64,000 nt of DNA, taken from contig JAKADA010000008.1 of the NCBI GenBank assembly GCA_021820975.1, forward strand, positions 2,621-66,620, written 5' to 3'. Source of the stretch: Bacillota bacterium. Its GTDB lineage: Bacteria; Bacillota; Bacilli; Alicyclobacillales; SLC66. The notes below the pieces were generated by a model, which saw nothing but the letters and a program-made list of their open reading frames with translations, did not search any database and was not told the DNA's origin. Each line of letters starts with the position of its first letter. Position 1 is the stretch's first letter. The position numbers and the translations under genes are program-made. Below, piece by piece: positions 3,301 to 64,000 of the stretch.

Positions 3301-4904
3301 CGCACCATGATATTTATTCGATTGAAGATTTATCCGAACTTATTCATGATTTAAAAAATGCCAATTCATCTGCCCGTATTAGCGTTAAGCTTGTGTCGGA
3401 AGTCGGTGTCGGCACGATCGCAGCTGGGGTTGCCAAAGGCAAGGCTGACGTTGTGCTTGTAAGTGGCTATGATGGTGGCACGGGAGCGTCTCCTGAGACG
3501 AGTATTCAATATGCTGGATTACCATGGGAACTCGGTCTTGCTGAGACACATCAAACACTTCTCTTAAATAAATTGCGTGATCGTATCGTCGTTGAAACGG
3601 ATGGCAAATTGATGACGGGTCGAGATGTTGCTATTGCCGCTTTACTTGGTGCCGAAGAATTTGGTTTTGCTACAGCGCCTTTGATCACGCTTGGGTGTGT
3701 GATGATGCGTGTATGTCATCTCGACACTTGTCCTGTTGGCATCGCCACGCAAAATCCTCTTTTACGAAAAAACTTTACGGGAAAGCCCGAATATGTCGAG
3801 CATTTCATGCGCTTTGTAGCACAAGAATTACGCGAGATTATGGCACGGTTAGGGCTAAAAACTATGGAGGACATGGTTGGTAGAACAGATTTGCTGACGA
3901 TGTCTGATGAGCTTAAGACAAGTAAGGTGCAAGGAATCGACTTATCGAAGTTGTTATATCAGCCCAAGGCGAAAGACGATGTAGCACGATTTAAACAGAT
4001 CGATCAGAATCACGGTATTGAGCAAACGTTAGACGCAACGTCCCTCGTCGCTGCGGCGAAATCTGCTCTTGAATCGGGTGATAAAGTAACAGCAAGTTTT
4101 CCCATTCGAAATACCAATCGTGTGACAGGCACACATTTGGGGAGTTTGGTGACGAGACGTTACGGTGCTAAGGGGTTACCTGATGATACGATAGAGTTTC
4201 ATTTTGAAGGGTCAGCTGGTCAAAGTTTTGGAGCTTTTCTTCCGAGAGGAATGACGCTTTTTCTGTGCGGTGATGCCAATGATTATGTGGGTAAAGGGCT
4301 ATCGGGAGGACGCATTGCTATTTTTGCACCTTCGGCATCCTCTTTTATTGCGCATGAGAATATCTTAATCGGCAATGTGGCATTGTATGGCGCAACAGCG
4401 GGAGAAGCATTTTTTGCCGGGCAAGCTGGGGAACGATTCGCTGTTCGTAACAGCGGGGCAACAGCTGTTGTTGAGGGTGTGGGAGATCATGGTTGTGAAT
4501 ATATGACAGGTGGGCGCGTTGTCGTACTAGGACGGACAGGGCGCAATTTTGCTGCGGGTATGTCTGGTGGTATTGCTTATGTGTTCGATGAGGATGGTGA
4601 TTTTTCAGCTCGTTGCAATCAAGACATGGTTCTGCTCGAGACGTTCACTGATGAGGAAGAAGCTTCATGGGTCAAAAACATATTGAAAAGTCATGTTCAT
4701 TTTACAAAAAGTGCGAAGGCAAACGATATATTGACAGACTGGCAAGTGACAAAGGCAAAGTTTGTTCGAGTAATTGCTAAAGATTATAAACGCATGTTGT
4801 CTTCTGTGGAAGAGGCAAAAGCTTTCGGCCTTACTGGACAACAAGCTATTATGGCAGCTTTTGAATTAAACAAAAACGACCTTGCACGCGTGGGCGGCAA
4901 TTAA
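306..4904 (+). CDS. gltB: Glutamate synthase large subunit
   Basis: 1532-aa ORF. N-terminal amidotransferase Cys in [11 protein letters not shown], plus the FMN/Fe-S central domain and C-terminal GXGXG region typical of GltB. An alternative ATG at 312 has better RBS spacing. Confidence 0.97.
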
Positions 4905-48149: not shown

Positions 48150-48217
48150 ATCCAAAAAGTTACAAGAGTAGACTCCTTCGGGGCGGGCACAATACTAGCA
48201 CGAAGGAGGTGGTCAGC

Positions 48218-48436
48218 GTGGCACAAGGACAAAAATCCAACACGCTATTAGTGAAAGGCGCAGGTCGGGCACTTGATCAATTGAAGTATGAGGTGGCTGG
48301 TGAGTTAGGTATTCAACCCCCTCAAGATGGGTATTGGGGAACGATGACAACGCGGGATACTGGGTCAATTGGTGGCCACATCACTCGTAAATTGGTTGCG
48401 CTTGCTGAACAACAACTCGCAGGTCGTTCTCAATAA
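48218..48436 (+). CDS. Alpha/beta-type small acid-soluble spore protein
   Basis: ALDQLKYEVAGELGI ... TTRDTGSIGGHITRKLV signature. GTG 48218 follows AAGGAGG. Confidence 0.9.
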   Translation: MAQGQKSNTLLVKGAGRALDQLKYEVAGELGIQPPQDGYWGTMTTRDTGSIGGHITRKLVALAEQQLAGRSQ

Positions 48437-48449
48437 GTTCTACAGTTTG

Positions 48450-57785: not shown

Positions 57786-57887
57786 ACTTTTCAATCTAAA
57801 CCTTTGTACCACTAACGCGTAGCATGCAACACTGTCAACTAGAAGTATTACAGTAAACATTTTTCCACAAAGTAAGGTTGTGCTCAA

Positions 57888-58304: not shown

Positions 58305-58328
58305 AAAAAAGAGGAGGTTAGTCCTCTT
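58305..58328 (-). terminator. Terminator at the rep 3' end
   Basis: AAGAGGA ggttag TCCTCTT with flanking A/T runs; overlaps the rep stop codon. Confidence 0.65.
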
Positions 58329-59283
58329 TTTTCATCAGTTTATTGAATTCAGCTTTAGTTATAGGTGGCAGAAAATTTTGTTCATTAGGCCGAGAAAAAC
58401 ATTGCACTTTATGGATTCTGCGCTTTAAAGCCAGCCAAGTTGACATGTGTTCCTCTCTGATGGAGGGATATTGTTGTTCCAATGGCATGTTACTAATCAT
58501 ATAAACTGTACTATAACATGCTTGTCGGTTATTGTATCGGGCGGGTAGCTGGATAGGATAACCATCAAGATAGTTCAGCATGTCGCTAATTTTGATTTGG
58601 CTTCTAAACTCGTCAAACAACAACACATCTTGGCATTCATATTGATCAAAAGGATGGTCATAATCGGATACGCGGTACACGTTGCGGTAACCGTACTTTT
58701 CCATGACATGCCGCGTTTTGCCGCTTCCAGTTGAACCCCAAATATAGATAACTTCCAGATTACGAAAAGTGGTTTTAAACTGTTCTGCCTTAACCATTAA
58801 TCGGGCGCGATCTATTTTGTCCAAGTGGAGGATGTGTTCAGGTGTTTCCTCGATAATTTCAAAATTACTCATACCTGCTTTTACCATGTCGTACAAATCA
58901 GCCAAGTCGTTTCTGGCACCTTGACGCTCAACGGGCATTTCTCCGTGTTCTTCAAAGGTTCCGGGAATTGCCGTACCATGTTTTTGATCGTTTTCCCATT
59001 TGCCTGACTTCATAATGTAATCCCTGTTTTGTTCGGAAGTGCCCTTGGCGATTTCAAGGTGGGCTTCATTAAAACAGTTTTTAACCGTTGAAAAACGGAC
59101 AGCGGAAGAGAAGACCACATAGATATGTGAATGGTGTGTGGAACCTGATTCGTCGGCTATGCAGTAGTAAAGCGTAGATTTGAGACTGTCTAATGTAGCT
59201 CTGATTTTATCGTGGTCGAAACCGTGATCAAGTGGATTATTAATTGTGATTTGCCATTTTCTTGATTGGGTATCTTTTGCCAT
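58318..59283 (-). CDS. Rolling-circle Rep / relaxase-like protein: HUH endonuclease fused to an SF3 helicase
   Basis: Motif I WQITINNP, motif II HHSHIYVVF, motif III RDYIMKSGK (YxxK). Walker A GSTGSGKT, Walker B VLLFDEF, motif C MISNMP. AGGAGG RBS. Confidence 0.85.
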   Translation of the reverse strand: MAKDTQSRKWQITINNPLDHGFDHDKIRATLDSLKSTLYYCIADESGSTHHSHIYVVFSSAVRFSTVKNCFNEAHLEIAKGTSEQNRDYIMKSGKWENDQKHGTAIPGTFEEHGEMPVERQGARNDLADLYDMVKAGMSNFEIIEETPEHILHLDKIDRARLMVKAEQFKTTFRNLEVIYIWGSTGSGKTRHVMEKYGYRNVYRVSDYDHPFDQYECQDVLLFDEFRSQIKISDMLNYLDGYPIQLPARYNNRQACYSTVYMISNMPLEQQYPSIREEHMSTWLALKRRIHKVQCFSRPNEQNFLPPITKAEFNKLMKKED

Positions 59284-59302
59284 GTAATTTGAACCTCCTA
59301 TT

Positions 59303-59316
59303 ATGCGACATGCGAC
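59303..59316. repeat. Tandem heptamer ATGCGAC x2 (iteron-like), rep-proximal side of the hairpin
   Basis: Read directly at 59303-59309 and 59310-59316. Confidence 0.8.
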
Positions 59317-59319
59317 GTA

Positions 59320-59350
59320 AGTTGGCTAGGTAATACTGGTCTAGCCAACT
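59320..59350 (-). other. Origin-like stem-loop with nonanucleotide CAGTATTAC in the loop
   Basis: AGTTGGCTAG gtaatactggt CTAGCCAACT (10-bp perfect stem). The loop on the rep-sense strand reads ACCAGTATTAC. Confidence 0.75.
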
Positions 59351-59355
59351 GTCTG

Positions 59356-59369
59356 TCGCGCTTCGCGCT
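59356..59369. repeat. Tandem heptamer TCGCGCT x2, distal side of the hairpin
   Basis: Read directly at 59356-59362 and 59363-59369. Confidence 0.8.
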
Positions 59370-59415
59370 CCAGGGTCGGGACGGCTTTGGGCTGCGCCCC
59401 GCCGCCCTCCTCGAG

Positions 59416-60129
59416 CTATAGCGGACGTGAAACGGCCTTGCGGATATACGATTCCAGCTTGGCTACATTCTGTACAGCAGGCACCTTTATAGCTGCCAAA
59501 TCGGTACCATTCACAAGCATGTGACCGTAACCAACACCAGAAATAGGTTCCATTTTGTCGCGATCAAAGCCAAACATTAATGCACTTTCTTTACTGATGT
59601 TCCCCATCGCAATCACTAGACCGAAATTGTCACGCGATTTAGCGAAATATTCCGCGTCGGCTCGCTGCTGGCTAATGAGTACATGGACGTTGAATGCCCT
59701 TCCCAACATCAGGAGCGTGGATAATTTCGCACGAGCGGTTTCAGCTTCTTTCTTGTCTACCGTGTTGAGAAAAGAGGCCCATTCATCGAACATCAAGAGC
59801 CTGAAATCACGGCTGGTATCCTCACCTCGTTGACGTGCGAGGAAGGCATGATAGTAGCTGTCCAGCCCATTGGTACAGTCCGAAAATTCGTAGTGGTTTG
59901 GCAAACCTCTTAATCCAATGAAATCATCGGCCTTGAAATCACACAGGACAACACCAGCATTCTTGATGTGTAATCCGATTCGCGCGATGATCAATTTAAC
60001 TAAAAAGGTTTTCCCTGAGCCAGTTGGCCCCACCAAAATAGCGTGGGGCACCTTGGCATAATCCCAGCGGCGGTAATGGTACACGCCGTCAGTTAACAGC
60101 ATAGAATCCAACGCGATATCGATGCCCAT
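59416..60129 (-). CDS. FtsK/SpoIIIE-family ATPase (DNA translocase / coupling-protein-like), soluble domain only
   Basis: Walker A GPTGSGKT, Walker B LLMFDEW, and a QQRAD block. 237 aa with no TM segment. Confidence 0.8.
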   Translation of the reverse strand: MGIDIALDSMLLTDGVYHYRRWDYAKVPHAILVGPTGSGKTFLVKLIIARIGLHIKNAGVVLCDFKADDFIGLRGLPNHYEFSDCTNGLDSYYHAFLARQRGEDTSRDFRLLMFDEWASFLNTVDKKEAETARAKLSTLLMLGRAFNVHVLISQQRADAEYFAKSRDNFGLVIAMGNISKESALMFGFDRDKMEPISGVGYGHMLVNGTDLAAIKVPAVQNVAKLESYIRKAVSRPL

Positions 60130-60134
60130 TTTGA

Positions 60135-60812
60135 TTAAAAATCCTCGTCGGTTGGTTCCGGTGGAGGTGGAGCAGCCTCTTCAAATTGCGAATTGATTAC
60201 AAATCGCAATTTGTCGTTGTTATCGACGATGATCAAGTCAATATACAAGGTAGCTGCATCATCGACGATGCGATCTATCCAAAAAATCGGGATTTGATTA
60301 TCTAATGATGCAAATGGGATGTTTTCGACGTTCCCAGCGCGAAGTTGTTCATTGATGCGCGTTTGAAGAATCTTTTTGATCATCTGCAAATCATTTGGTT
60401 CCCAATGTCCACGTTTAGTTTTAGAAACTTTTACTTTAACGATTTCCATTCCATTACGTATTGCGAGTGATGGCGTTTTGACAATGTCGAGCACATCAAG
60501 CGGACGAACAGTACCAATTCGATTGTGAATTTGGGAAATTACTTTGAATAATTCTTGATAAGCCGATTCGACTAAATTAAAAACGGGCGCTGGTGGCGCT
60601 TTGGGACGTTGGTCGTAGGCTAAATACCCCAAAAAGGTGATGGCTAATACGGGTATTCCCCAATATTTTATCGTCGCCAGTAACACAATGACGGTTATGA
60701 GGCTAAACACCATCACTCCAATCGCGATCTTGTCGTTATCAGTTAGTTCTTTCTTTATAGCACGCTGCACGATTTCGATCGCTCTATGCATCTTTTCGAT
60801 ACTTTTCTTCAT
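60135..60812 (-). CDS. Element-encoded 2-TM membrane protein with a Pro-rich acidic tail
   Basis: 225 aa. TM pair IAIGVMVFSLITVIVLLATI / IPVLAITFLGYLAY. Ends 5 nt before the FtsK-like gene. Confidence 0.6.
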   Translation of the reverse strand: MKKSIEKMHRAIEIVQRAIKKELTDNDKIAIGVMVFSLITVIVLLATIKYWGIPVLAITFLGYLAYDQRPKAPPAPVFNLVESAYQELFKVISQIHNRIGTVRPLDVLDIVKTPSLAIRNGMEIVKVKVSKTKRGHWEPNDLQMIKKILQTRINEQLRAGNVENIPFASLDNQIPIFWIDRIVDDAATLYIDLIIVDNNDKLRFVINSQFEEAAPPPPEPTDEDF

Positions 60813-61219
60813 GATTTATTTCCACCTTTGACTAAAATCGCTTTTTCTGCTTTGCATGAAAGTTGATAGTTTCCCGAGCGATCTCTCCAAAACTTACCCT
60901 CGAATGAGACAAAGGTAATGAGTGTCGATTCGGTGAGTAAATCGACTGTGATAATAGGCGGCAAATCGGGGACTTTGACCAAGATTTTCTCATATCCCGC
61001 CTGCGGACAAACGCAAGTGTACGCGATGCCGCCAATTTTATCTGTTTTCACATTGCTCTCATAAACGTTGTACGGGCTCATGGTCACCAGCAGCACTTCG
61101 TTTGCGTGGGCGATGCTAGGCAAATCAAGTCGAACGTCTTCTGGACGCATGACAATCATCCTTTCTGGTTTTATGGATTGATACAAATTCCTCAAACTCT
61201 CCTTGGTGTTGTTCTGCAT
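60809..61219 (-). CDS. Element-encoded hypothetical protein
   Basis: 136-aa ORF with ATGA overlap to the downstream gene. The true start may be the internal ATG (MRPEDVR...) preceded by AAAGGA. Confidence 0.5.
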   Translation of the reverse strand: MQNNTKESLRNLYQSIKPERMIVMRPEDVRLDLPSIAHANEVLLVTMSPYNVYESNVKTDKIGGIAYTCVCPQAGYEKILVKVPDLPPIITVDLLTESTLITFVSFEGKFWRDRSGNYQLSCKAEKAILVKGGNKS

Positions 61220-61295: not shown

Positions 61296-61386
61296 TCGCC
61301 TCGCCTCCCTCTTCGCATTTTCAATTTACCATTTGGCCGTAAAAATGAACAGACACGAATATATAAACTCGGATTAATGAATTATG

Positions 61387-61415
61387 TTGAAAAAAAGATC
61401 ATTATAGTGTACACT
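61387..61415 (+). promoter_or_regulatory. Promoter TTGAAA-17-TACACT with overlapping palindrome AGTGTACACT
   Basis: Hexamers at 61387-61392 and 61410-61415; 10-bp palindrome at 61406-61415. Upstream of the XRE gene. Confidence 0.45.
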
Positions 61416-61448
61416 AAGAACGAAATTATCGATAGGGCGTGGAAAATT

Positions 61449-62099
61449 ATGTTTAACATGACTGATGAAATGTTAGCCTCTACTTTTGCAATTAGAACAA
61501 ACGCAAGGAGGAAACAATTAAAAATCACACGCGAGGAACTTGCCCAATATGCGGAAATCTCAACCAGCACATTGGCCTCATATTTGCGTGAAAAAGAACC
61601 CGTCGTACCCATGTTGCGTGCGGCAATCAGAATGGCAGATAAACTCGGGGTTTCATTAGCTTACCTTTGTGGTTTGGAAAATGAAGGAGACTTTACTCCC
61701 AATGGACTTTCGGCAGAAGTCATTTTAAAGAATCTTTATCGCTCCATTCTGGAAGCTCAGCTAAATTGGCATTTTGAAAATAATAAAGTTGTACTAGAAA
61801 GTGATAATCGGTTCATTATGTCTTTTTTGATACACATCAAGAAAGATTCTTCAAGAGATAAGCTAGATAGCTCGATTTTTAAGCATTTCAAAGACATCAA
61901 ACTCTGGAAAGGTCGAATGGTAACAGATGAAGAATATAAAGAGTTGAGTTACATTGAATATGTGTATGGAGACATTACAGAAGGAGATGATCTTTATCCT
62001 GATGAATTAAATGGACTAATAGAATTGCGGAAACAGCATTGGGAGCAAACAGGAGGGAACCCCACAGAATATTTACATGAAGAGAGGGAGGAAAAGTGA
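61449..62099 (+). CDS. XRE-family HTH regulator (element repressor-like)
   Basis: ARRKQLKITREELAQYAEISTSTLASYLRE helix-turn-helix. Start set at ATG 61449. Confidence 0.75.
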   Translation: MFNMTDEMLASTFAIRTNARRKQLKITREELAQYAEISTSTLASYLREKEPVVPMLRAAIRMADKLGVSLAYLCGLENEGDFTPNGLSAEVILKNLYRSILEAQLNWHFENNKVVLESDNRFIMSFLIHIKKDSSRDKLDSSIFKHFKDIKLWKGRMVTDEEYKELSYIEYVYGDITEGDDLYPDELNGLIELRKQHWEQTGGNPTEYLHEEREEK

Positions 62100-63607
62100 A
62101 CGTCGTCATCTACGCACGCTATAGCAGCCACAGCCAGACCGAACAGTCCATAGAGGGTCAAATTAAGGTCTGCGAGGAATTTGCTTCTAAAAATGAATAC
62201 ACCATCATCAGCAGGTACATTGATCGGGCAATATCTGGAACTACTGACAATCGTCCTGAATTTTTACGCATGATTGAAGATTCCAGCCGAAAACAGTTTC
62301 AGGGTGTGCTGGTCTATCAATTGGATCGATTTGCTAGAAATAGGTATGATTCAGCGATATACAAAGCAAAATTGAAGAAAAATGGTGTAAGGGTATTTTC
62401 GGCAAAGGAAAATATTACCGATGATGCAAGTGGAATTTTGGTTGAGGGATTGCTGGAAAGCATGGCGGAATATTATTCAGTAGAGTTATCGCAAAAAATA
62501 AGGAGAGGGCTCGATTTGAATGCACAAAAACAGTTGGCAACAGGTGGAAATGTTGCGCTTGGGTATAAAGTAGACGAAGATAGGAAATTCGTCATTGATG
62601 AACATGGGGCTGAGATTGTCAGAATGGTTTATGAAATGTACGCTGATGGAAAAACCATCACGGAAATCAATCAACATTTAAATAGCTTGAATTATCAATC
62701 ATCAAAAGGGTCAGCATTTAATAAAAATTCGCTGACCAAAATGCTGAGAAACAAACGGTATATTGGTATTTATACCTATAAAGACATGGAAGTTAAAGAT
62801 GGTATTCCACGCATTATATCGGATGAACTTTTTGAGAAAGTGGCTGAAAGGCTGGGCAAGAATAAGCAGGCTCCTGCTCGAAGCAAAGCGAAAGCACAAT
62901 ATCTACTAACCACTAAGTTGTTTTGTGGACATTGCAACGAAATGATGACAGGGGAGAGTGGGACATCCAAAACAGGGAGAATATATAATTATTACAAATG
63001 TAATCATGCTAGGAAAAAATTGTGTCATAAAAAGACTGTTAAAAAAGATTATATCGAAAATTTGGTGATTGACGAATGTAGGACATTACTAACGGATGAA
63101 AATATTGAAAAAATCACCGTTGAAGTTATGAAGATAAGCGAGCAAGAAAAAGATAAATCTCACATCAAGTTATTGACTAAGCAACTTAAGGAAAATGAGC
63201 GTAAACGAAACAATGTTGTTACTGCCATCGCTGAATGCGATTTAGAAGCAGTTAGAAAAACATTGTATGAACATATTCCTGTTTTGGAAGAAGAGAGAAA
63301 GCATTTGGAGATGCAACTCTCTACGGAACAGCTATCACGAGTCAGTCTGACTGAACCTGAAATCAAGTTTTTTCTTTCTCATTTGAAAAATGGGAATATG
63401 AATGATGAAAAGTATCGTCAAACTCTAGTCAACGTATTTATCAATTCAATATATCTTTACGATGACAAAATGACACTGATTTTCAACTCCAGTAATTATC
63501 CTGCAAATATTGAAGTGGATTTGCTTGGTGAGGTTGAAGCTAATAATAAGGATTACGAGAGTTCGTTTTTAGTATCGAACGCTCCACCAAAAAACCCGCG
63601 TAAATAG
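62096..63607 (+). CDS. Large serine recombinase
   Basis: Resolvase catalytic N-terminus VVIYARYSSHSQ...GQ, recombinase domain, Cys-rich zinc-ribbon CGHCNEMM...YYKCNHARKKLCHKK, and a coiled-coil. GTGA overlap with the XRE stop. Confidence 0.9.
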   Translation: MNVVIYARYSSHSQTEQSIEGQIKVCEEFASKNEYTIISRYIDRAISGTTDNRPEFLRMIEDSSRKQFQGVLVYQLDRFARNRYDSAIYKAKLKKNGVRVFSAKENITDDASGILVEGLLESMAEYYSVELSQKIRRGLDLNAQKQLATGGNVALGYKVDEDRKFVIDEHGAEIVRMVYEMYADGKTITEINQHLNSLNYQSSKGSAFNKNSLTKMLRNKRYIGIYTYKDMEVKDGIPRIISDELFEKVAERLGKNKQAPARSKAKAQYLLTTKLFCGHCNEMMTGESGTSKTGRIYNYYKCNHARKKLCHKKTVKKDYIENLVIDECRTLLTDENIEKITVEVMKISEQEKDKSHIKLLTKQLKENERKRNNVVTAIAECDLEAVRKTLYEHIPVLEEERKHLEMQLSTEQLSRVSLTEPEIKFFLSHLKNGNMNDEKYRQTLVNVFINSIYLYDDKMTLIFNSSNYPANIEVDLLGEVEANNKDYESSFLVSNAPPKNPRK

Positions 63608-63616
63608 CGGGTTTTT
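63594..63616 (+). terminator. Terminator after the recombinase
   Basis: ACCCGC gtaaata GCGGGT followed by TTTTT. Confidence 0.7.
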
Positions 63617-63634
63617 GCCATTTCAAAGTTGATT

Positions 63635-63705
63635 TTGTAGACAAATTGTAGACAAGCGATTTTTCGATGCCCAATCTTCGTGTTGTCTGTAGACAAAATG
63701 TCTAC
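63635..63705. repeat. Cluster of TGTAGACAA motifs including the palindrome GTAGACA-aaa-TGTCTAC
   Basis: TTGTAGACAA at 63635-63644 and 63647-63656. TTGTCTGTAGACAAAATGTCTAC at 63683-63705. Confidence 0.8.
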
Positions 63706-63935: not shown

Positions 63936-64000
63936 TTGTGGTTTCCAGTCAGTTTGCGGAGAACCCTATCACAAGTAGTGGTAAAGCAGAAGTTCGAACT

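What the first reader, a model, noticed from the sequence alone, without database searches (positions are those of the whole stretch)
59303..59369. CRESS-DNA-virus-type origin upstream of a bacterial Rep gene: stem-loop presenting CAGTATTAC, flanked by tandem heptamers
Positions 59320-59350 form a perfect 10-bp stem (AGTTGGCTAG / CTAGCCAACT) with an 11-nt loop. On the rep-sense (minus) strand the loop reads ACCAGTATTAC, which contains nAGTATTAC. That is the nonanucleotide nicked by HUH Reps of circoviruses and nanoviruses (TAGTATTAC) and is close to the geminivirus TAATATTAC. The hairpin ends 36 nt upstream of the rep ATG (59283), on the same strand as rep, as in circovirus intergenic regions. 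It is bracketed by ATGCGAC ATGCGAC (59303-59316, rep-proximal) and TCGCGCT TCGCGCT (59356-59369, distal). These are iteron-like tandem repeats placed about 4-6 nt from the stem base on each side. Nonanucleotide hairpin, iterons and an adjacent HUH-SF3 Rep together make a complete viral-type ori module inside a chromosomally integrated element of a spore-forming Firmicute.
Basis: partly seen in the sequence, partly recalled or inferred. Interest (0 to 1): 0.85.

Follow-up and report, generated by a model that had tools for sequence, protein, structure and literature searches.

The report
Circovirus-type replication origin in bacterial element
A DNA hairpin that displays the same nick sequence used by circoviruses sits just upstream of a virus-like replication gene in a small element integrated in a spore-forming bacterium; it looks real and functional, but both the gene family and the DNA motif had already been catalogued.

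Summary
Window 59320-59350 is a perfect 10-bp stem with an 11-nt loop reading ACCAGTATTAC on the rep-sense strand, 36 nt upstream of a 321-aa HUH + SF3 Rep.

The hairpin is conserved. A covariance model finds it next to rep in 71 of 80 genome loci and 34 of 40 viral-contig loci. There are 78 different stems, 98% of cells pair, and 8 of 9 pairs show compensatory changes, while the loop stays (T/C/A)AGTATTAC.

The rep-proximal heptamers are genuine iterons. They are tandem in 45 of 70 loci, and their sequence tracks Rep residue 6 (Q with GTCGCA, R with GTGACA).

The distal "heptamers" are not iterons. They form a small GAA-loop hairpin whose stem covaries in relatives.

The best explanation is the Rep nick site and origin of a roughly 5.5-kb serine-recombinase integrative element. 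Its gene order (OB-fold protein, membrane protein, FtsK-like ATPase, hairpin, Rep) mirrors ICESt3/Tn916 transfer modules, so the site probably also serves as oriT.

None of this is a new kind of thing. The Rep belongs to pCRESS2 (Kazlauskas 2019) and to the Rel_PF02407 mobilizable elements (Coluzzi 2017). The cis motif is Rfam RF03070 "ssNA-helicase", which this instance matches just below threshold. Related Rep-origin cassettes occur in plasmid p4M and in inoviruses. The finding is a new member of a known kind, of modest interest.

The parts
59320..59350 (-). Origin hairpin with a 10-bp perfect stem. On the rep-sense strand the 5' arm is 59350->59341 and the 3' arm is 59329->59320. The 11-nt loop, 59340->59330, reads ACCAGTATTAC.
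   Evidence: Sequence. DNA fold z = -4.5. It is the only hit of covariance model R1 in the window, at 27 bits. It matches Rfam RF03070 at 38.6 bits.
59330..59338 (-). Nonanucleotide CAGTATTAC. By analogy with circovirus and nanovirus Reps (AAGTATT*AC, TAGTATT*AC), the predicted nick lies between T59332 and A59331 on the minus strand.
   Evidence: The octamer is almost invariant across 86 distinct hairpins: TAGTATTAC 63, CAGTATTAC 9, AAGTATTAC 8. The cleavage position is inferred from PMC7826260 and was not tested.
59303..59317 (-). Two tandem heptamer iterons (C/T)GTCGCA, 3 nt beyond the 3' arm of the stem, between the hairpin and the rep ribosome-binding site. This is the presumed double-stranded binding site of Rep.
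   Evidence: Tandem 7-8-mers occur at this position in 45 of 70 loci, against 9 of 70 on the other side of the stem and 2% of shuffles. The core sequence covaries with Rep residue 6. The repeats are part of the RF03070 consensus.
59358..59368 (-). Mini-hairpin GCGC-GAA-GCGC. Its function is unknown.
   Evidence: The homologous position in L001-L005 holds CGCGC-GGA-GCGCG, CGCGC-GAA-GCGCG, GCCTTGC-GGA-GCAAGGC and CCTCGC-GAA-GCGAGG. All fold as triloop hairpins. The window's own copy is weak: 4 bp, z = -1.4.
59389..59399 (-). Second mini-hairpin GGGC-GCA-GCCC, capping a longer imperfect GC-rich hairpin just after the ATPase stop codon. Its function is unknown.
   Evidence: Fold. Relatives have GGGC-GAA-GCCC. 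Plasmid p4M has a similar GGGCGGCGGGGGCGCAGC...GCGAAGC stretch at the same place.
58318..59283 (-). Rep, 321 aa: an HUH endonuclease fused to an SF3 helicase. Motif I is WQITINNP, motif II HSHIY, motif III YIMK with Tyr89. The helicase has Walker A GSTGSGKT, Walker B FDEF and motif C Asn265.
   Evidence: Pfam PF02407 plus PF00910. The motifs are invariant across 24 homologues. PCV2 Rep 7lar aligns over residues 7-275 with E 6e-11. It is 55% identical to the Rep of RosInu-E1, a listed pCRESS2 element.
59294..59299 (-). Ribosome-binding site AGGAGG of rep, 10 nt before the ATG.
   Evidence: Sequence.
58305..58332 (.). 11-bp hairpin flanked by A and T runs, overlapping the rep stop codon. Probably the rep terminator.
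59416..60129 (-). FtsK/HerA-type P-loop ATPase, 237 aa, immediately upstream of the hairpin. Candidate coupling protein or DNA translocase.
   Evidence: Weak Pfam hits to FtsK_SpoIIIE, DUF87 and AAA_10, all at or below their cut-offs. PHROG FtsK/SpoIIIE-like, E 2e-16. A homologue lies directly upstream of rep in 28 of 80 genome loci.
60135..60812 (-). 225-aa protein with a hydrophobic N-terminal segment and no family assignment.
   Evidence: Translation. No family found. Conserved in 7 close loci.
60809..61150 (-). 113-aa OB-fold protein resembling SSB and OrfM. The mechanical ORF runs on to 61219.
   Evidence: AlphaFold2 pLDDT 89.4. Foldseek hits are to SSBs and to ICESt3 OrfM 9hnj, with TM 0.48/0.54 and modest E-values around 0.01. 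Conserved in 18 loci.
61377..62099 (+). XRE-type helix-turn-helix regulator, transcribed divergently from the rep operon.
   Evidence: PF01381, E 3e-8. Gene call.
62096..63607 (+). Large serine recombinase, 503 aa. This is the element's integrase.
   Evidence: Resolvase, Recombinase and Zn_ribbon_recom domains. Conserved with the same gene order in L002, L003, L007 and L010.

Best explanation
The hairpin is the DNA nick site, the double-strand origin, of a small integrative element of about 5.5 kb (roughly 58.2-63.7 kb in the window). The element belongs to the pCRESS2 group of virus-like Rep elements.

Inferred mechanism:
1. The serine recombinase excises the element as a double-stranded circle.
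2. Rep binds the two (C/T)GTCGCA iterons beside the stem. Residues next to motif I (Gln6) and motif II (Ser60, Ala61) contribute to this recognition.
3. The inverted repeat is extruded or melted, so the loop presents CAGTATTAC as single-stranded DNA on the rep-sense strand.
4. Tyr89 of the HUH domain cuts between T7 and A8 and stays linked to the 5' end.
5. The free 3'-OH primes host DNA synthesis, and the SF3 helicase domain drives unwinding.
6. When the hairpin is regenerated, Rep reseals the displaced strand.

The site lies between an FtsK-like ATPase gene and rep, downstream of an OB-fold protein gene. This is the layout of ICESt3, Tn916 and ICEBs1 DNA-processing modules. The same nick is therefore probably also used as an oriT, for transfer through a helper element's mating pore.

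Shown here: the sequence and fold, the conservation and covariation, the iteron-Rep covariation, Rep's homology to circovirus Rep, and the gene context. Inferred only: the binding, the cleavage position, excision, replication and transfer.
For: Fold. The hairpin is the core of the single-stranded DNA minimum-energy and centroid structures, z = -4.5.

Conservation.
- 62 of 80 genome loci have a perfect-stem hairpin with a ...AGTATTAC loop within 300 nt upstream of rep.
- Model R1 finds it in 71 of 80 genome loci and 34 of 40 IMG/VR loci, almost always on the rep strand.
- Across 86 distinct hairpins there are 78 distinct left arms but essentially one loop motif.
- Over 74 distinct sequences, 98.3% of cells pair and 8 of 9 pairs show double changes. 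Slid controls give 30-54%.

Geometry. A 10-bp stem with an 11-nt loop falls within the 9-11 bp and 10-13 nt reported for circo-, nano- and geminivirus origins (PMC7826260).

Rep.
- It is homologous over its full length to PCV2 Rep.
- The segment aligned to PCV2's ssDNA-bridging motif (ARCHIEKAKG in PCV2, NEAHLEIAKG here) keeps H, E, A, K and G.
- The catalytic motifs are invariant.

Iterons.
- They are enriched on the 3' side of the stem.
- Rep residue 6 is the alignment column that best predicts the iteron core, z = 10.3. Q pairs with GTCGCA in 36 of 42 cases, R with G(T/A)G.. in 18 of 18, and M with GTAACA in 5 of 5. The next best columns are residues 60 and 61, just after motif II.
- This matches the location of the specificity determinants proposed for eukaryotic ssDNA-virus Reps (Londono 2010, as cited in PMC7659335).
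- The iterons travel with Rep whether the neighbouring ATPase is FtsK-like or Zot-like, and also in Rep-only 1.8-kb units.

Autonomous replicons.
- Plasmid p4M (4.5 kb) has the same layout: FtsK, GC-rich stretch, hairpin with TAGTGTTAC, GTACCA x2, then RepA.
- Circular inovirus genomes carry the Rep and the hairpin.

Transfer reading.
- The OB-fold protein resembles ICESt3 OrfM.
- ICESt3's oriT lies in the intergenic region between the coupling-protein and relaxase genes, with its nic site in a hairpin loop (PMC9371924).
- PF02407 proteins next to TcpA-type ATPases have already been proposed as relaxases of mobilizable elements (PMC5357655).
Against: - There is no biochemical or genetic evidence for this element or for any pCRESS2 member that I could find.
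- The conservation statistics rest on related sequences. The structural alignment (A4) was fitted to the model, which inflates the percentage paired. The seed set (A3) was selected for having a stem.
- The residue-6 to iteron correlation is not corrected for phylogeny. It is only ranked against other columns of the same alignment.
- The window's instance scores below the Rfam gathering threshold (38.6 against 41.5 bits).
- Twenty-five of 70 loci lack tandem iterons. They have one copy plus an inverted copy about 45 nt downstream.
- In three loci the whole origin module is inverted relative to rep, so its orientation with respect to rep is not obligatory.
- The element's ends and its excision were not established.
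- The ATPase's assignment to FtsK/TcpA is weak at sequence level.
- The OrfM and SSB fold matches have modest scores, E about 0.01 and TM 0.35-0.54.
- No conjugation apparatus was seen in the window.
Confidence: 0.85

Rival explanations
1. The site is primarily an origin of transfer. Rep acts as a relaxase for conjugative mobilization of an integrative mobilizable element, and the FtsK-like ATPase acts as coupling protein. Autonomous rolling-circle replication would be secondary or absent. This reading overlaps with the best explanation, since the nick chemistry is the same.
For: - The gene order (OB-fold protein, membrane protein, FtsK-like ATPase, hairpin, Rep) parallels ICESt3 orfM-orfL-orfK-oriT-orfJ.
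- ICESt3's oriT lies in the orfJ/orfK intergenic region with its nic site in a hairpin loop (PMC9371924).
- Streptococcal mobilizable elements carrying PF02407 proteins always have a TcpA-type ATPase, and tcpA lies upstream of the relaxase gene (PMC5357655).
Against: - The same Rep-origin cassette sits in a non-mobilizable autonomous plasmid, p4M, and in inovirus genomes with a Zot ATPase.
- It also occurs in 1.8-kb Rep-only units. In all these cases replication is its obvious job.
- The fused SF3 helicase is a replication feature of CRESS Reps.
- No type IV secretion genes were found in the window.
Confidence: 0.3
2. The conserved motif acts as RNA. It would be a structured leader or small RNA, as in Rfam's annotation of RF03070 as an sRNA, or an attenuator or terminator between the ATPase gene and rep, regulating rep expression.
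For: - Rfam curates the motif as an RNA family.
- The hairpin lies inside a probable operon transcript and 36 nt from the rep start.
- A weak sigma-70-like match (9 of 12 positions) overlaps the 3' arm and the second iteron.
Against: - The invariant part is the loop, and it equals the DNA nick sequence of the homologous viral Reps.
- There is no T-run after the stem.
- The unpaired tandem repeats covary with a residue of the Rep protein. This fits protein-DNA recognition rather than an RNA structure.
- The module works in either orientation relative to rep, which a cis-acting leader would not.
Confidence: 0.04
3. The element is a defective relative or a satellite of filamentous (inovirus-like) phages. 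The hairpin would then be the plus-strand origin that generates single-stranded DNA for packaging by a helper phage.
For: - 24 of 80 genome loci and 26 of 40 viral loci with this Rep and hairpin carry a Zot/pI-type morphogenesis ATPase instead of the FtsK-like one.
- GenBank inoviruses (bajarodino viruses) encode a Rep 47-54% identical.
Against: - The window's element has no Zot homologue, no recognisable coat proteins and no cluster of small membrane proteins.
- FtsK-type and Zot-type contexts are mutually exclusive.
- The close relatives L001-L004 all share the FtsK-type layout.
Confidence: 0.05
4. The hairpin is a chance inverted repeat, or an ordinary terminator that happens to contain AGTATTAC.
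For: Perfect stems of at least 10 bp are common in the window, 16 in all. The octamer occurs 5 times.
Against: The hairpin, loop motif, position and strand recur in more than 100 independent loci with different stems.
Confidence: 0.01

Closest known systems
Rfam RF03070, the 'ssNA-helicase RNA' motif (from Weinberg et al. 2017, NAR 45:10811, the survey of 224 candidate structured RNAs)
   Same: It is the same cis element. The model consensus is an 11-bp stem, a loop reading UAGUAUUAC, and an 18-nt tail containing UGUAGCA UGUAGCA. The window aligns end to end over 59304-59348 on the minus strand. The closest relatives L001 and L002 and six others of 16 tested pass the gathering score.
   Different: The window's copy scores 38.6 bits against a threshold of 41.5, so a default Rfam annotation would miss it. 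Its iterons are GTCGCA rather than GUAGCA, and its stem is 10 bp. Rfam types the family as an sRNA gene; the evidence here points to a DNA origin. From memory, the authors chose the name 'ssNA' because they could not tell RNA from single-stranded DNA. I could not read their supplementary text.
Origin of replication of porcine circoviruses 1 and 2 and other Circoviridae and Nanoviridae
   Same: - The stem-loop has the nonanucleotide (A/T)AGTATT*AC at its apex.
- The PCV stem is 11 bp.
- Tandem short repeats (hexamers CGGCAG, H1-H4) lie beside the stem, between the hairpin and rep, on the rep-sense strand.
- Rep is an HUH endonuclease fused to an SF3 helicase, with specificity determinants next to motifs I and II (PMC7826260; PMC7659335).
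- Sequence homology to PCV2 Rep is significant, E 6e-11.
   Different: - Here the repeats are heptamers, two copies rather than four.
- The first nonamer base is C.
- Motif II is HUH rather than HUQ.
- There is no capsid gene.
- The replicon is a bacterial element integrated by a serine recombinase.
- GC-rich mini-hairpins precede the stem-loop.
pCRESS2 and pCRESS3 integrated plasmids (Kazlauskas, Varsani, Koonin and Krupovic 2019), including RosInu-E1 and plasmid p4M
   Same: - The Rep family is the same: 55% identity to the RosInu-E1 Rep, whose element overlaps locus L050.
- The Rep has HUH, a glutamate in Walker B and the motif C asparagine.
- An FtsK-like ATPase and an SSB-like protein are encoded alongside.
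- p4M shows the same FtsK, hairpin, repeats and RepA layout.
   Different: - The elements described in that paper use tyrosine integrases and mostly tRNA targets. This one has a large serine recombinase.
- Neither the main text nor the held supplements contain the words nonanucleotide or stem-loop, so the origin was apparently not described there.
DNA-processing modules of the ICESt3, Tn916 and ICEBs1 superfamily (MOBT relaxase, TcpA-type coupling protein, OrfM/HelP-like OB-fold protein, oriT)
   Same: The gene order matches: small OB-fold protein, then the FtsK-like ATPase, then an intergenic nic hairpin, then the HUH-type initiator or relaxase. The binding site lies downstream of the nic site. 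In ICEBs1 the initiator serves both replication and transfer (PMC9371924; PMC5357655; PMC5704250).
   Different: - The nickase here is a Viral_Rep + SF3 protein, not Rep_trans/MOBT.
- The nic sequence is AGTATT/AC rather than CT/AA.
- The iterons abut the hairpin instead of lying 68 bp away.
- No mating-pore genes accompany the module.
Double-strand origin of pMV158/pE194-family rolling-circle plasmids
   Same: The nick lies in a hairpin loop, tandem direct repeats bound by the initiator lie next to it, and the HUH initiator is evolutionarily linked to CRESS Reps (PMC10288648; PMC6668415).
   Different: Those initiators lack the helicase domain and belong to a different Rep family (PF01719). 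Their nick sequence and repeat lengths also differ.

Membership tests
CRESS-DNA-virus-type origin of replication (architecture) | Stem-loop with a stem of about 9-11 bp or more and a loop of about 10-13 nt | tested here: met
   A 10-bp perfect stem and an 11-nt loop. It is the minimum-energy single-stranded DNA structure. The range is taken from PMC7826260.
CRESS-DNA-virus-type origin of replication (architecture) | Conserved nonanucleotide NAGTATTAC or TAATATTAC in the loop, on the Rep-sense strand | tested here: met
   CAGTATTAC at 59338->59330 on the minus strand. It is conserved in 86 distinct hairpins.
CRESS-DNA-virus-type origin of replication (architecture) | Iterated Rep-binding repeats next to the stem | tested here: met
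   The proximal heptamers are conserved in position (45 of 70 loci) and covary with Rep residue 6. The distal pair is not conserved as repeats.
CRESS-DNA-virus-type origin of replication (architecture) | Adjacent Rep with HUH motifs I-III and an SF3 helicase | tested here: met
CRESS-DNA-virus-type origin of replication (architecture) | Rep cleaves between positions 7 and 8 of the nonamer and attaches covalently | not testable with these tools
   This needs an in vitro nicking assay.
CRESS-DNA virus (Cressdnaviricota), as an organism | Small circular single-stranded DNA genome encoding a capsid protein, with a eukaryotic host | tested here: not met
   No capsid-like gene was found. The locus lies in a bacterial chromosome between housekeeping genes. 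It works like a CRESS origin but is not a CRESS virus.
pCRESS2 integrated plasmids (Kazlauskas 2019) | Rep clusters with pCRESS2 Reps | tested here: met
   55% identity over 296 aa to the Rep inside RosInu-E1 (NZ_ACFY01000152, 42399..50222). The locus is and the table. No phylogeny was run.
pCRESS2 integrated plasmids (Kazlauskas 2019) | Motif signature: HUH (not HUQ), glutamate in Walker B, asparagine in motif C | tested here: met
   HSH, FDEF (FEEF in most relatives) and N265. The criteria come from Supplementary Note 1.
pCRESS2 integrated plasmids (Kazlauskas 2019) | Companion genes: FtsK-like ATPase and a single-stranded-DNA-binding protein | tested here: met
   FtsK-like ATPase: PHROG E 2e-16, with weak Pfam hits. 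OB-fold protein with SSB-like fold matches of modest score.
pCRESS2 integrated plasmids (Kazlauskas 2019) | Site-specific integration flanked by direct repeats; the described members use a tyrosine integrase | tested here: inconclusive
   The integrase here is a large serine recombinase. No significant flanking repeats were found. Similarity to related elements ends inside the 3' end of rep.
Rfam RF03070 ssNA-helicase motif | Score at or above the curated gathering threshold of 41.5 bits | tested here: not met
   The window scores 38.6 bits, E 1e-5 on the 251-nt region, with a full-length alignment. The closest relatives pass: L001 at 44.4 and L002 at 46.7. I treat the window's copy as a divergent member on homology grounds.
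Rfam RF03070 ssNA-helicase motif | Location upstream of a gene with a viral-type (PF00910) helicase domain | tested here: met
Integrative mobilizable element with a Rel_PF02407 relaxase (Coluzzi 2017, IME class 7) | An integrase, a PF02407 protein, and a TcpA-type ATPase encoded just upstream of it | tested here: met
   Membership of the ATPase in the TcpA family proper was not tested with CONJscan.
Integrative mobilizable element with a Rel_PF02407 relaxase (Coluzzi 2017, IME class 7) | Mobilization in trans by a conjugative element | not testable with these tools
   This needs mating assays. It is also untested for the published members; the relaxases are described as putative in PMC5704250.
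Inovirus-like prophage (Tubulavirales) | Zot/pI morphogenesis ATPase and small coat proteins | tested here: not met
   The window's ATPase matches FtsK-type and not Zot-type families. Relatives such as L021, L077, L091 and bajarodino virus 56 do have Zot.

The most novel reading that the evidence does not exclude
Rfam's 'ssNA-helicase RNA' (RF03070) would not be an RNA. It would be the DNA origin and nic site of pCRESS2 and pCRESS3 Reps, already carrying the complete circovirus-type architecture:
- a nonamer hairpin;
- adjacent iterons;
- specificity residues beside motifs I and II, with a simple readable code (Gln6 with GTCGCA, Arg6 with GTGACA, Met6 with GTAACA).

This one Rep-origin cassette would be swapped among three lifestyles in Bacillota and Actinobacteria: ICE-like mobilizable elements, autonomous plasmids, and filamentous phages. 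On this reading the whole cis-plus-trans recognition system of eukaryotic CRESS-DNA viruses was inherited intact from bacterial elements, and the specificity of these replicons could be predicted or re-engineered from a single residue.
Probability: 0.55. Interest if true: 0.5.

Novelty: new member of a known kind. Interest (0 to 1): 0.3.

Why it matters
For this genome the value is in annotation. A hairpin that Rfam would miss by 3 bits can be labelled as the origin or nic site of an intact-looking pCRESS2-type integrative element.

More generally, the comparison links three literatures that describe the same module under different names: pCRESS plasmids, Rel_PF02407 mobilizable elements, and the RF03070 "RNA" motif. 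It shows that the circovirus and nanovirus nick sequence, and the iteron layout beside it, are conserved in bacterial elements. That fits the proposal that CRESS-DNA viruses arose from bacterial plasmids.

The residue-6 to iteron correlation gives a cheap, testable handle on origin specificity. It could be useful for HUH-tag engineering or for building compatible small replicons for Bacillota. None of this overturns current understanding.

Tried and rejected
- **MAFFT alignment of 71 hairpin regions.** It misaligned the left arms because loop lengths vary. I replaced it with a gap-free seed of 22 sequences, a covariance model and a structural alignment.
- **Extended stem in the window.** The fold pairs GCGAC with GTCGC. 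The pairing is absent from L002-L004, so I treat it as incidental.
- **Second AGTATTAC at 57844-57851 (+).** There is no stem and no model hit.
- **Element ends.** Only chance-level 9-10-mers are shared between the two flanks. Nucleotide similarity to related elements stops inside rep. The ends remain unresolved.
- **Host name.** Cluster look-ups carry no names. The contigs come from unnamed assemblies, GCA_016276955.3 and ERZ27237524.
- **Sequence-family searches for the 113/136-aa, 225-aa, 96-aa and 424-aa ORFs.** Nothing was found in Pfam, NCBIfam or PHROGs. Only structure prediction gave a lead, and only for the 113-aa protein.
- **Single-sequence homologue search for the 136-aa ORF.** It found 2 proteins. 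A profile built from loci was needed.
- **Prior reports of the origin.** Literature searches found none in pCRESS, GasCSV or p4M papers within the held library. The supplementary text of Weinberg 2017 is not held, so I cannot say how far those authors took the single-stranded DNA idea.
- **Rep promoter.** There is only a 9-of-12 consensus match overlapping the stem and iteron, no better than shuffled sequence.
Full report
**1. The observation**

The sequence is as described. AGTTGGCTAG (59320-59329) and CTAGCCAACT (59341-59350) form a perfect 10-bp inverted repeat around 11 nt. On the minus strand, which is the sense strand of the ORF 58318-59283, the loop reads ACCAGTATTAC. The stem ends 36 nt before the ATG, and an AGGAGG ribosome-binding site lies at 59294-59299. 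ATGCGAC x2 (59303-59316) and TCGCGCT x2 (59356-59369) are both present.

Folded as single-stranded DNA, the hairpin is the core of the minimum-energy and centroid structures. For 59295-59375, z = -4.5 and 0 of 200 shuffles fold as well. For the whole 132-nt intergenic region, z = -2.8.

A perfect 10-bp stem is not rare in itself. The window has 16, mostly terminators, against about 1 in simulated sequence. AGTATTAC occurs five times in the window. The case therefore rests on the combination of features and on comparison with relatives.

**2. The gene next to it**

The ORF encodes a 321-aa protein with PF02407 Viral_Rep and PF00910 SF3-helicase domains.
- In an alignment of 24 homologues the key motifs are invariant or nearly so. 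These are motif I (WQITINNP), motif II (H51-x-H53), motif III (Y89-x-x-K92), Walker A, Walker B (FDEF or FEEF) and the motif C asparagine.
- The best solved-structure match is full-length porcine circovirus 2 Rep (7lar). It aligns over residues 7-275 with E 6e-11.
- The segment aligned to PCV2's ssDNA-bridging motif (ARCHIEKAKG; PMC7826260) reads NEAHLEIAKG here.
- The family is large: 3376 database proteins at E <= 1e-5, almost all from Bacillota.

**3. Conservation of the hairpin**

I fetched 80 loci from one-per-species genomes and 40 from IMG/VR viral contigs that encode relatives 41-76% identical.
- A naive scan found a perfect-stem hairpin with a ...AGTATTAC loop within 300 nt upstream of rep in 62 of 80 genome loci.
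- A covariance model built from 22 gap-free examples found it in 71 of 80 genome loci and 34 of 40 viral loci. In the window it has exactly one hit, 59319-59351 on the minus strand.
- Six further genome loci carry the nonamer in atypical stems. Of the three that lack it, one has no upstream sequence and one has a truncated rep.
- Across both sets there are 86 distinct hairpins with 78 different left arms. The nonamers are TAGTATTAC (63), CAGTATTAC (9), AAGTATTAC (8) and five single-base variants. Stems run 7-14 bp, most often 11. Loops run 6-12 nt, most often 10.
- On the structural alignment of 74 distinct sequences, 98.3% of cells pair and 8 of 9 pairs show changes on both sides. Registers slid by 1-3 columns give 30-54%.

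Two caveats apply. That alignment is fitted to the model, and the seed was chosen for having stems.

The pattern of a variable, compensating stem with an invariant loop is what a nick site presented on a hairpin should show. It is not what a terminator should show. The stem and loop dimensions fall in the range reported for circo-, nano- and geminivirus origins. The loop sequences include those of PCV2 (AAGTATT*AC), nanoviruses (TAGTATT*AC) and duck circovirus (TATTATT*AC) (PMC7826260).

**4. The flanking repeats**

*Rep-proximal side.* On the 3' side of the stem, tandem 7-8-nt repeats start within 14 nt of the stem in 45 of 70 loci. The mirrored 5' side gives 9 of 70, and shuffles give 2%.
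- The unit has the form TG(T/A)nnCA. Observed forms are TGTCGCA, TGTGACA, TGTAACA, TGTGTCA, TGTAGCA, TGAGACA and TGAAACA.
- Loci without a tandem pair have one copy plus an inverted copy about 45 nt downstream.
- The variable core tracks the protein. Among all alignment columns of 45 Reps, the residue three positions before R-K-W of motif I (Gln6 in the window) is the best predictor of the iteron core, z = 10.3. Next come residues 60 and 61, just after motif II, with z = 7.2 and 6.1.
- Over 75 unique Reps, Q goes with GTCGCA in 36 of 42, R with a core whose second base is G in 18 of 18, M with GTAACA in 5 of 5, and Y with GACACA in 2 of 2.
- These are the positions where DNA-binding specificity determinants were proposed for geminivirus, nanovirus and circovirus Reps (Londono et al. 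2010, as cited in PMC7659335).
- The test is not corrected for phylogeny, so it is supportive rather than conclusive.
- The repeats accompany Rep whatever the neighbouring genes are. That argues they are Rep sites and not sites for the ATPase.

- TCGCGCT TCGCGCT reads GCGC-GAA-GCGC on the rep strand.
- At the same place the five closest relatives have CGCGC-GGA-GCGCG, CGCGC-GAA-GCGCG, GCCTTGC-GGA-GCAAGGC and CCTCGC-GAA-GCGAGG, the last in two loci. These are different stems with the same G-N-A triloop, and three of the five are not tandem repeats.
- All fold as mini-hairpins. The window's own 4-bp version is weak.
- A second mini-hairpin, GGGC-GCA-GCCC at 59389-59399, caps a longer GC-rich hairpin just after the ATPase stop codon.
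- Plasmid p4M has a similar GGGCGGCGGGGGCGCAGC...GCGAAGC stretch in the same position.

I could not assign a function to this GC-rich stretch. It has no T-run. It is absent from the AT-rich phage-type relatives.

**5. The element and its relatives**

The genes are, in order:
- serine recombinase, 62096-63607 (+);
- XRE regulator (+);
- then on the minus strand, a 113-aa protein, a 225-aa membrane protein, a 237-aa FtsK/HerA-like ATPase, the hairpin, and Rep.

This order is conserved in the closest relatives. The surrounding window is chromosomal, with glutamate synthase, menD, menE and citrate synthase. An alpha/beta-type SASP gene shows that the host forms endospores.

The 113-aa protein has no sequence-family hit. 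Its AlphaFold2 model (pLDDT 89) is an OB fold. Its best PDB matches are SSBs and OrfM of ICESt3, with modest scores.

The layout of OB-fold protein, FtsK-like ATPase, intergenic hairpin and HUH initiator matches the DNA-processing module of ICESt3, Tn916 and ICEBs1. In ICESt3 the oriT lies in the intergenic region between the coupling-protein and relaxase genes, and the nic site sits in a hairpin loop (PMC9371924).

The same Rep-origin cassette also occurs in other settings:
- next to Zot/pI morphogenesis ATPases, in 24 of 80 genome loci and 26 of 40 viral loci, never together with the FtsK type;
- in deposited circular inovirus genomes (bajarodino viruses);
- in the autonomous 4.5-kb plasmid p4M;
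- in a contig made of 1.8-kb units that each hold just a Rep gene and a hairpin.

Replication is therefore the cassette's common function. In the window's context, transfer is a plausible second use.

**6. What is already known**

- Locus L050 overlaps RosInu-E1, a listed pCRESS2 element. The motif signature fits pCRESS2.
- Kazlauskas et al. 2019 described these integrated plasmids with FtsK-like and SSB genes. Their text and held supplements mention no origin.
- Coluzzi et al. 2017 and Guedon et al. 2017 classed PF02407 proteins next to TcpA-type ATPases as putative relaxases of mobilizable elements.
- Tisza et al. 2020 reported chimeras combining a CRESS-type Rep with inovirus genes.
- The cis motif itself is Rfam RF03070, "ssNA-helicase RNA". 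Its consensus holds the stem, the UAGUAUUAC loop and two UGUAGCA repeats. The window aligns end to end at 38.6 bits against a threshold of 41.5. Eight of 16 relatives, including the two closest, pass the threshold.

What I did not find stated anywhere in the held library:
- the explicit identification of that motif as a circovirus-type DNA origin;
- the iteron-residue correlation;
- the mini-hairpins.

The supplementary text of the motif's original paper was not available.

**7. Verdict**

It needs three corrections. The distal repeats are a mini-hairpin, the site is probably also an oriT, and the finding is not novel in kind. It is a new, slightly divergent member of a known Rep family, a known class of element and a known curated motif.

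Noticed in passing
L062:1-6818 (contig CAYUUX010000037.1): The contig is two copies of a 3.6-kb unit. Each unit is made of two diverged 1.8-kb modules (86% identical), each holding one nonamer hairpin, one Rep gene and one small ORF. The two modules have different iterons (TGTGAC and TGAGAC) and differ at the residue before R-K-W (S against T). This looks like a minimal Rep-only circular replicon or a heterodimer of two.
   Followed up: partly
L021, L031, L077, L091, L097, L125 (upstream of rep): In about a third of relatives the gene before the hairpin is a Zot/pI-type morphogenesis ATPase. It is preceded by a gene of 430-480 aa and a cluster of small ORFs. These are inovirus-like prophages or genomes that use this CRESS-type Rep and origin. 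The Zot-type and FtsK-type contexts never co-occur.
   Followed up: partly
L126 (plasmid p4M, NC_003527.1) 2674-2786: The autonomous Bifidobacterium plasmid p4M (pCRESS3; Rep 31% identical) has the same layout between its FtsK-like gene and repA. In order it has a GC-rich stretch containing GCGAAGC, the hairpin GTGGGCGG / CATAGTGTTAC / CCGCCCAC, then GTACCA x2 and the ribosome-binding site.
   Followed up: partly
L042, L044, L047 (about 100-130 nt upstream of rep): In these three loci the whole origin module, hairpin loop and adjacent repeat together, is inverted. The nonamer therefore lies on the strand opposite to rep.
   Followed up: no
L059 and L060, about 3800-3870: An extra GC-rich hairpin with a GAA loop (GGGGCC-GAA-GGCCCC) is inserted between the left arm and the nonamer. 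The iteron pair TGTGTCA x2 is repeated about 100 nt further downstream.
   Followed up: no
window 59351-59415: A GC-rich stretch with two G-N-A triloop mini-hairpins lies between the ATPase stop codon and the origin hairpin. It is conserved in the FtsK-type relatives and in p4M, and its function is unknown. It could be a lagging-strand priming site, an accessory-protein site or an attenuator.
   Followed up: partly
window 57844-57851 (+): A second exact AGTATTAC lies on the opposite strand, about 470 nt beyond the rep stop codon and near the presumed left end of the element. It is not in a hairpin and the model does not detect it. It is probably chance.
   Followed up: partly
window 60809-61150 (-): A 113-aa protein with no sequence-family hit is confidently predicted as an OB fold. 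It resembles SSBs and ICESt3 OrfM, so it may be a single-stranded-DNA-binding or helicase-accessory factor of the element.
   Followed up: yes
L081:1-5089 (continuation of the same contig beyond window position 64000): Just past the serine recombinase lie a 933-aa AAA_30/UvrD_C-type helicase, a 216-aa protein and a PLD-like protein. They could be cargo, a defence locus or host genes. It is unclear whether they belong to the element.
   Followed up: no
window about 48200-48440 (gene seen in L123:2206-2424): A small acid-soluble spore protein gene (PF00269) lies next to citrate synthase, which confirms an endospore-forming host. The closest Rep relative is from Alicyclobacillus sp. SP_1 (76% identity).
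   Followed up: partly
window 63586-63660 (-): There is a weak, sub-threshold Rfam match to Trp_leader (26 bits against 41). It overlaps the terminator hairpin after the recombinase gene and is almost certainly spurious.
   Followed up: no
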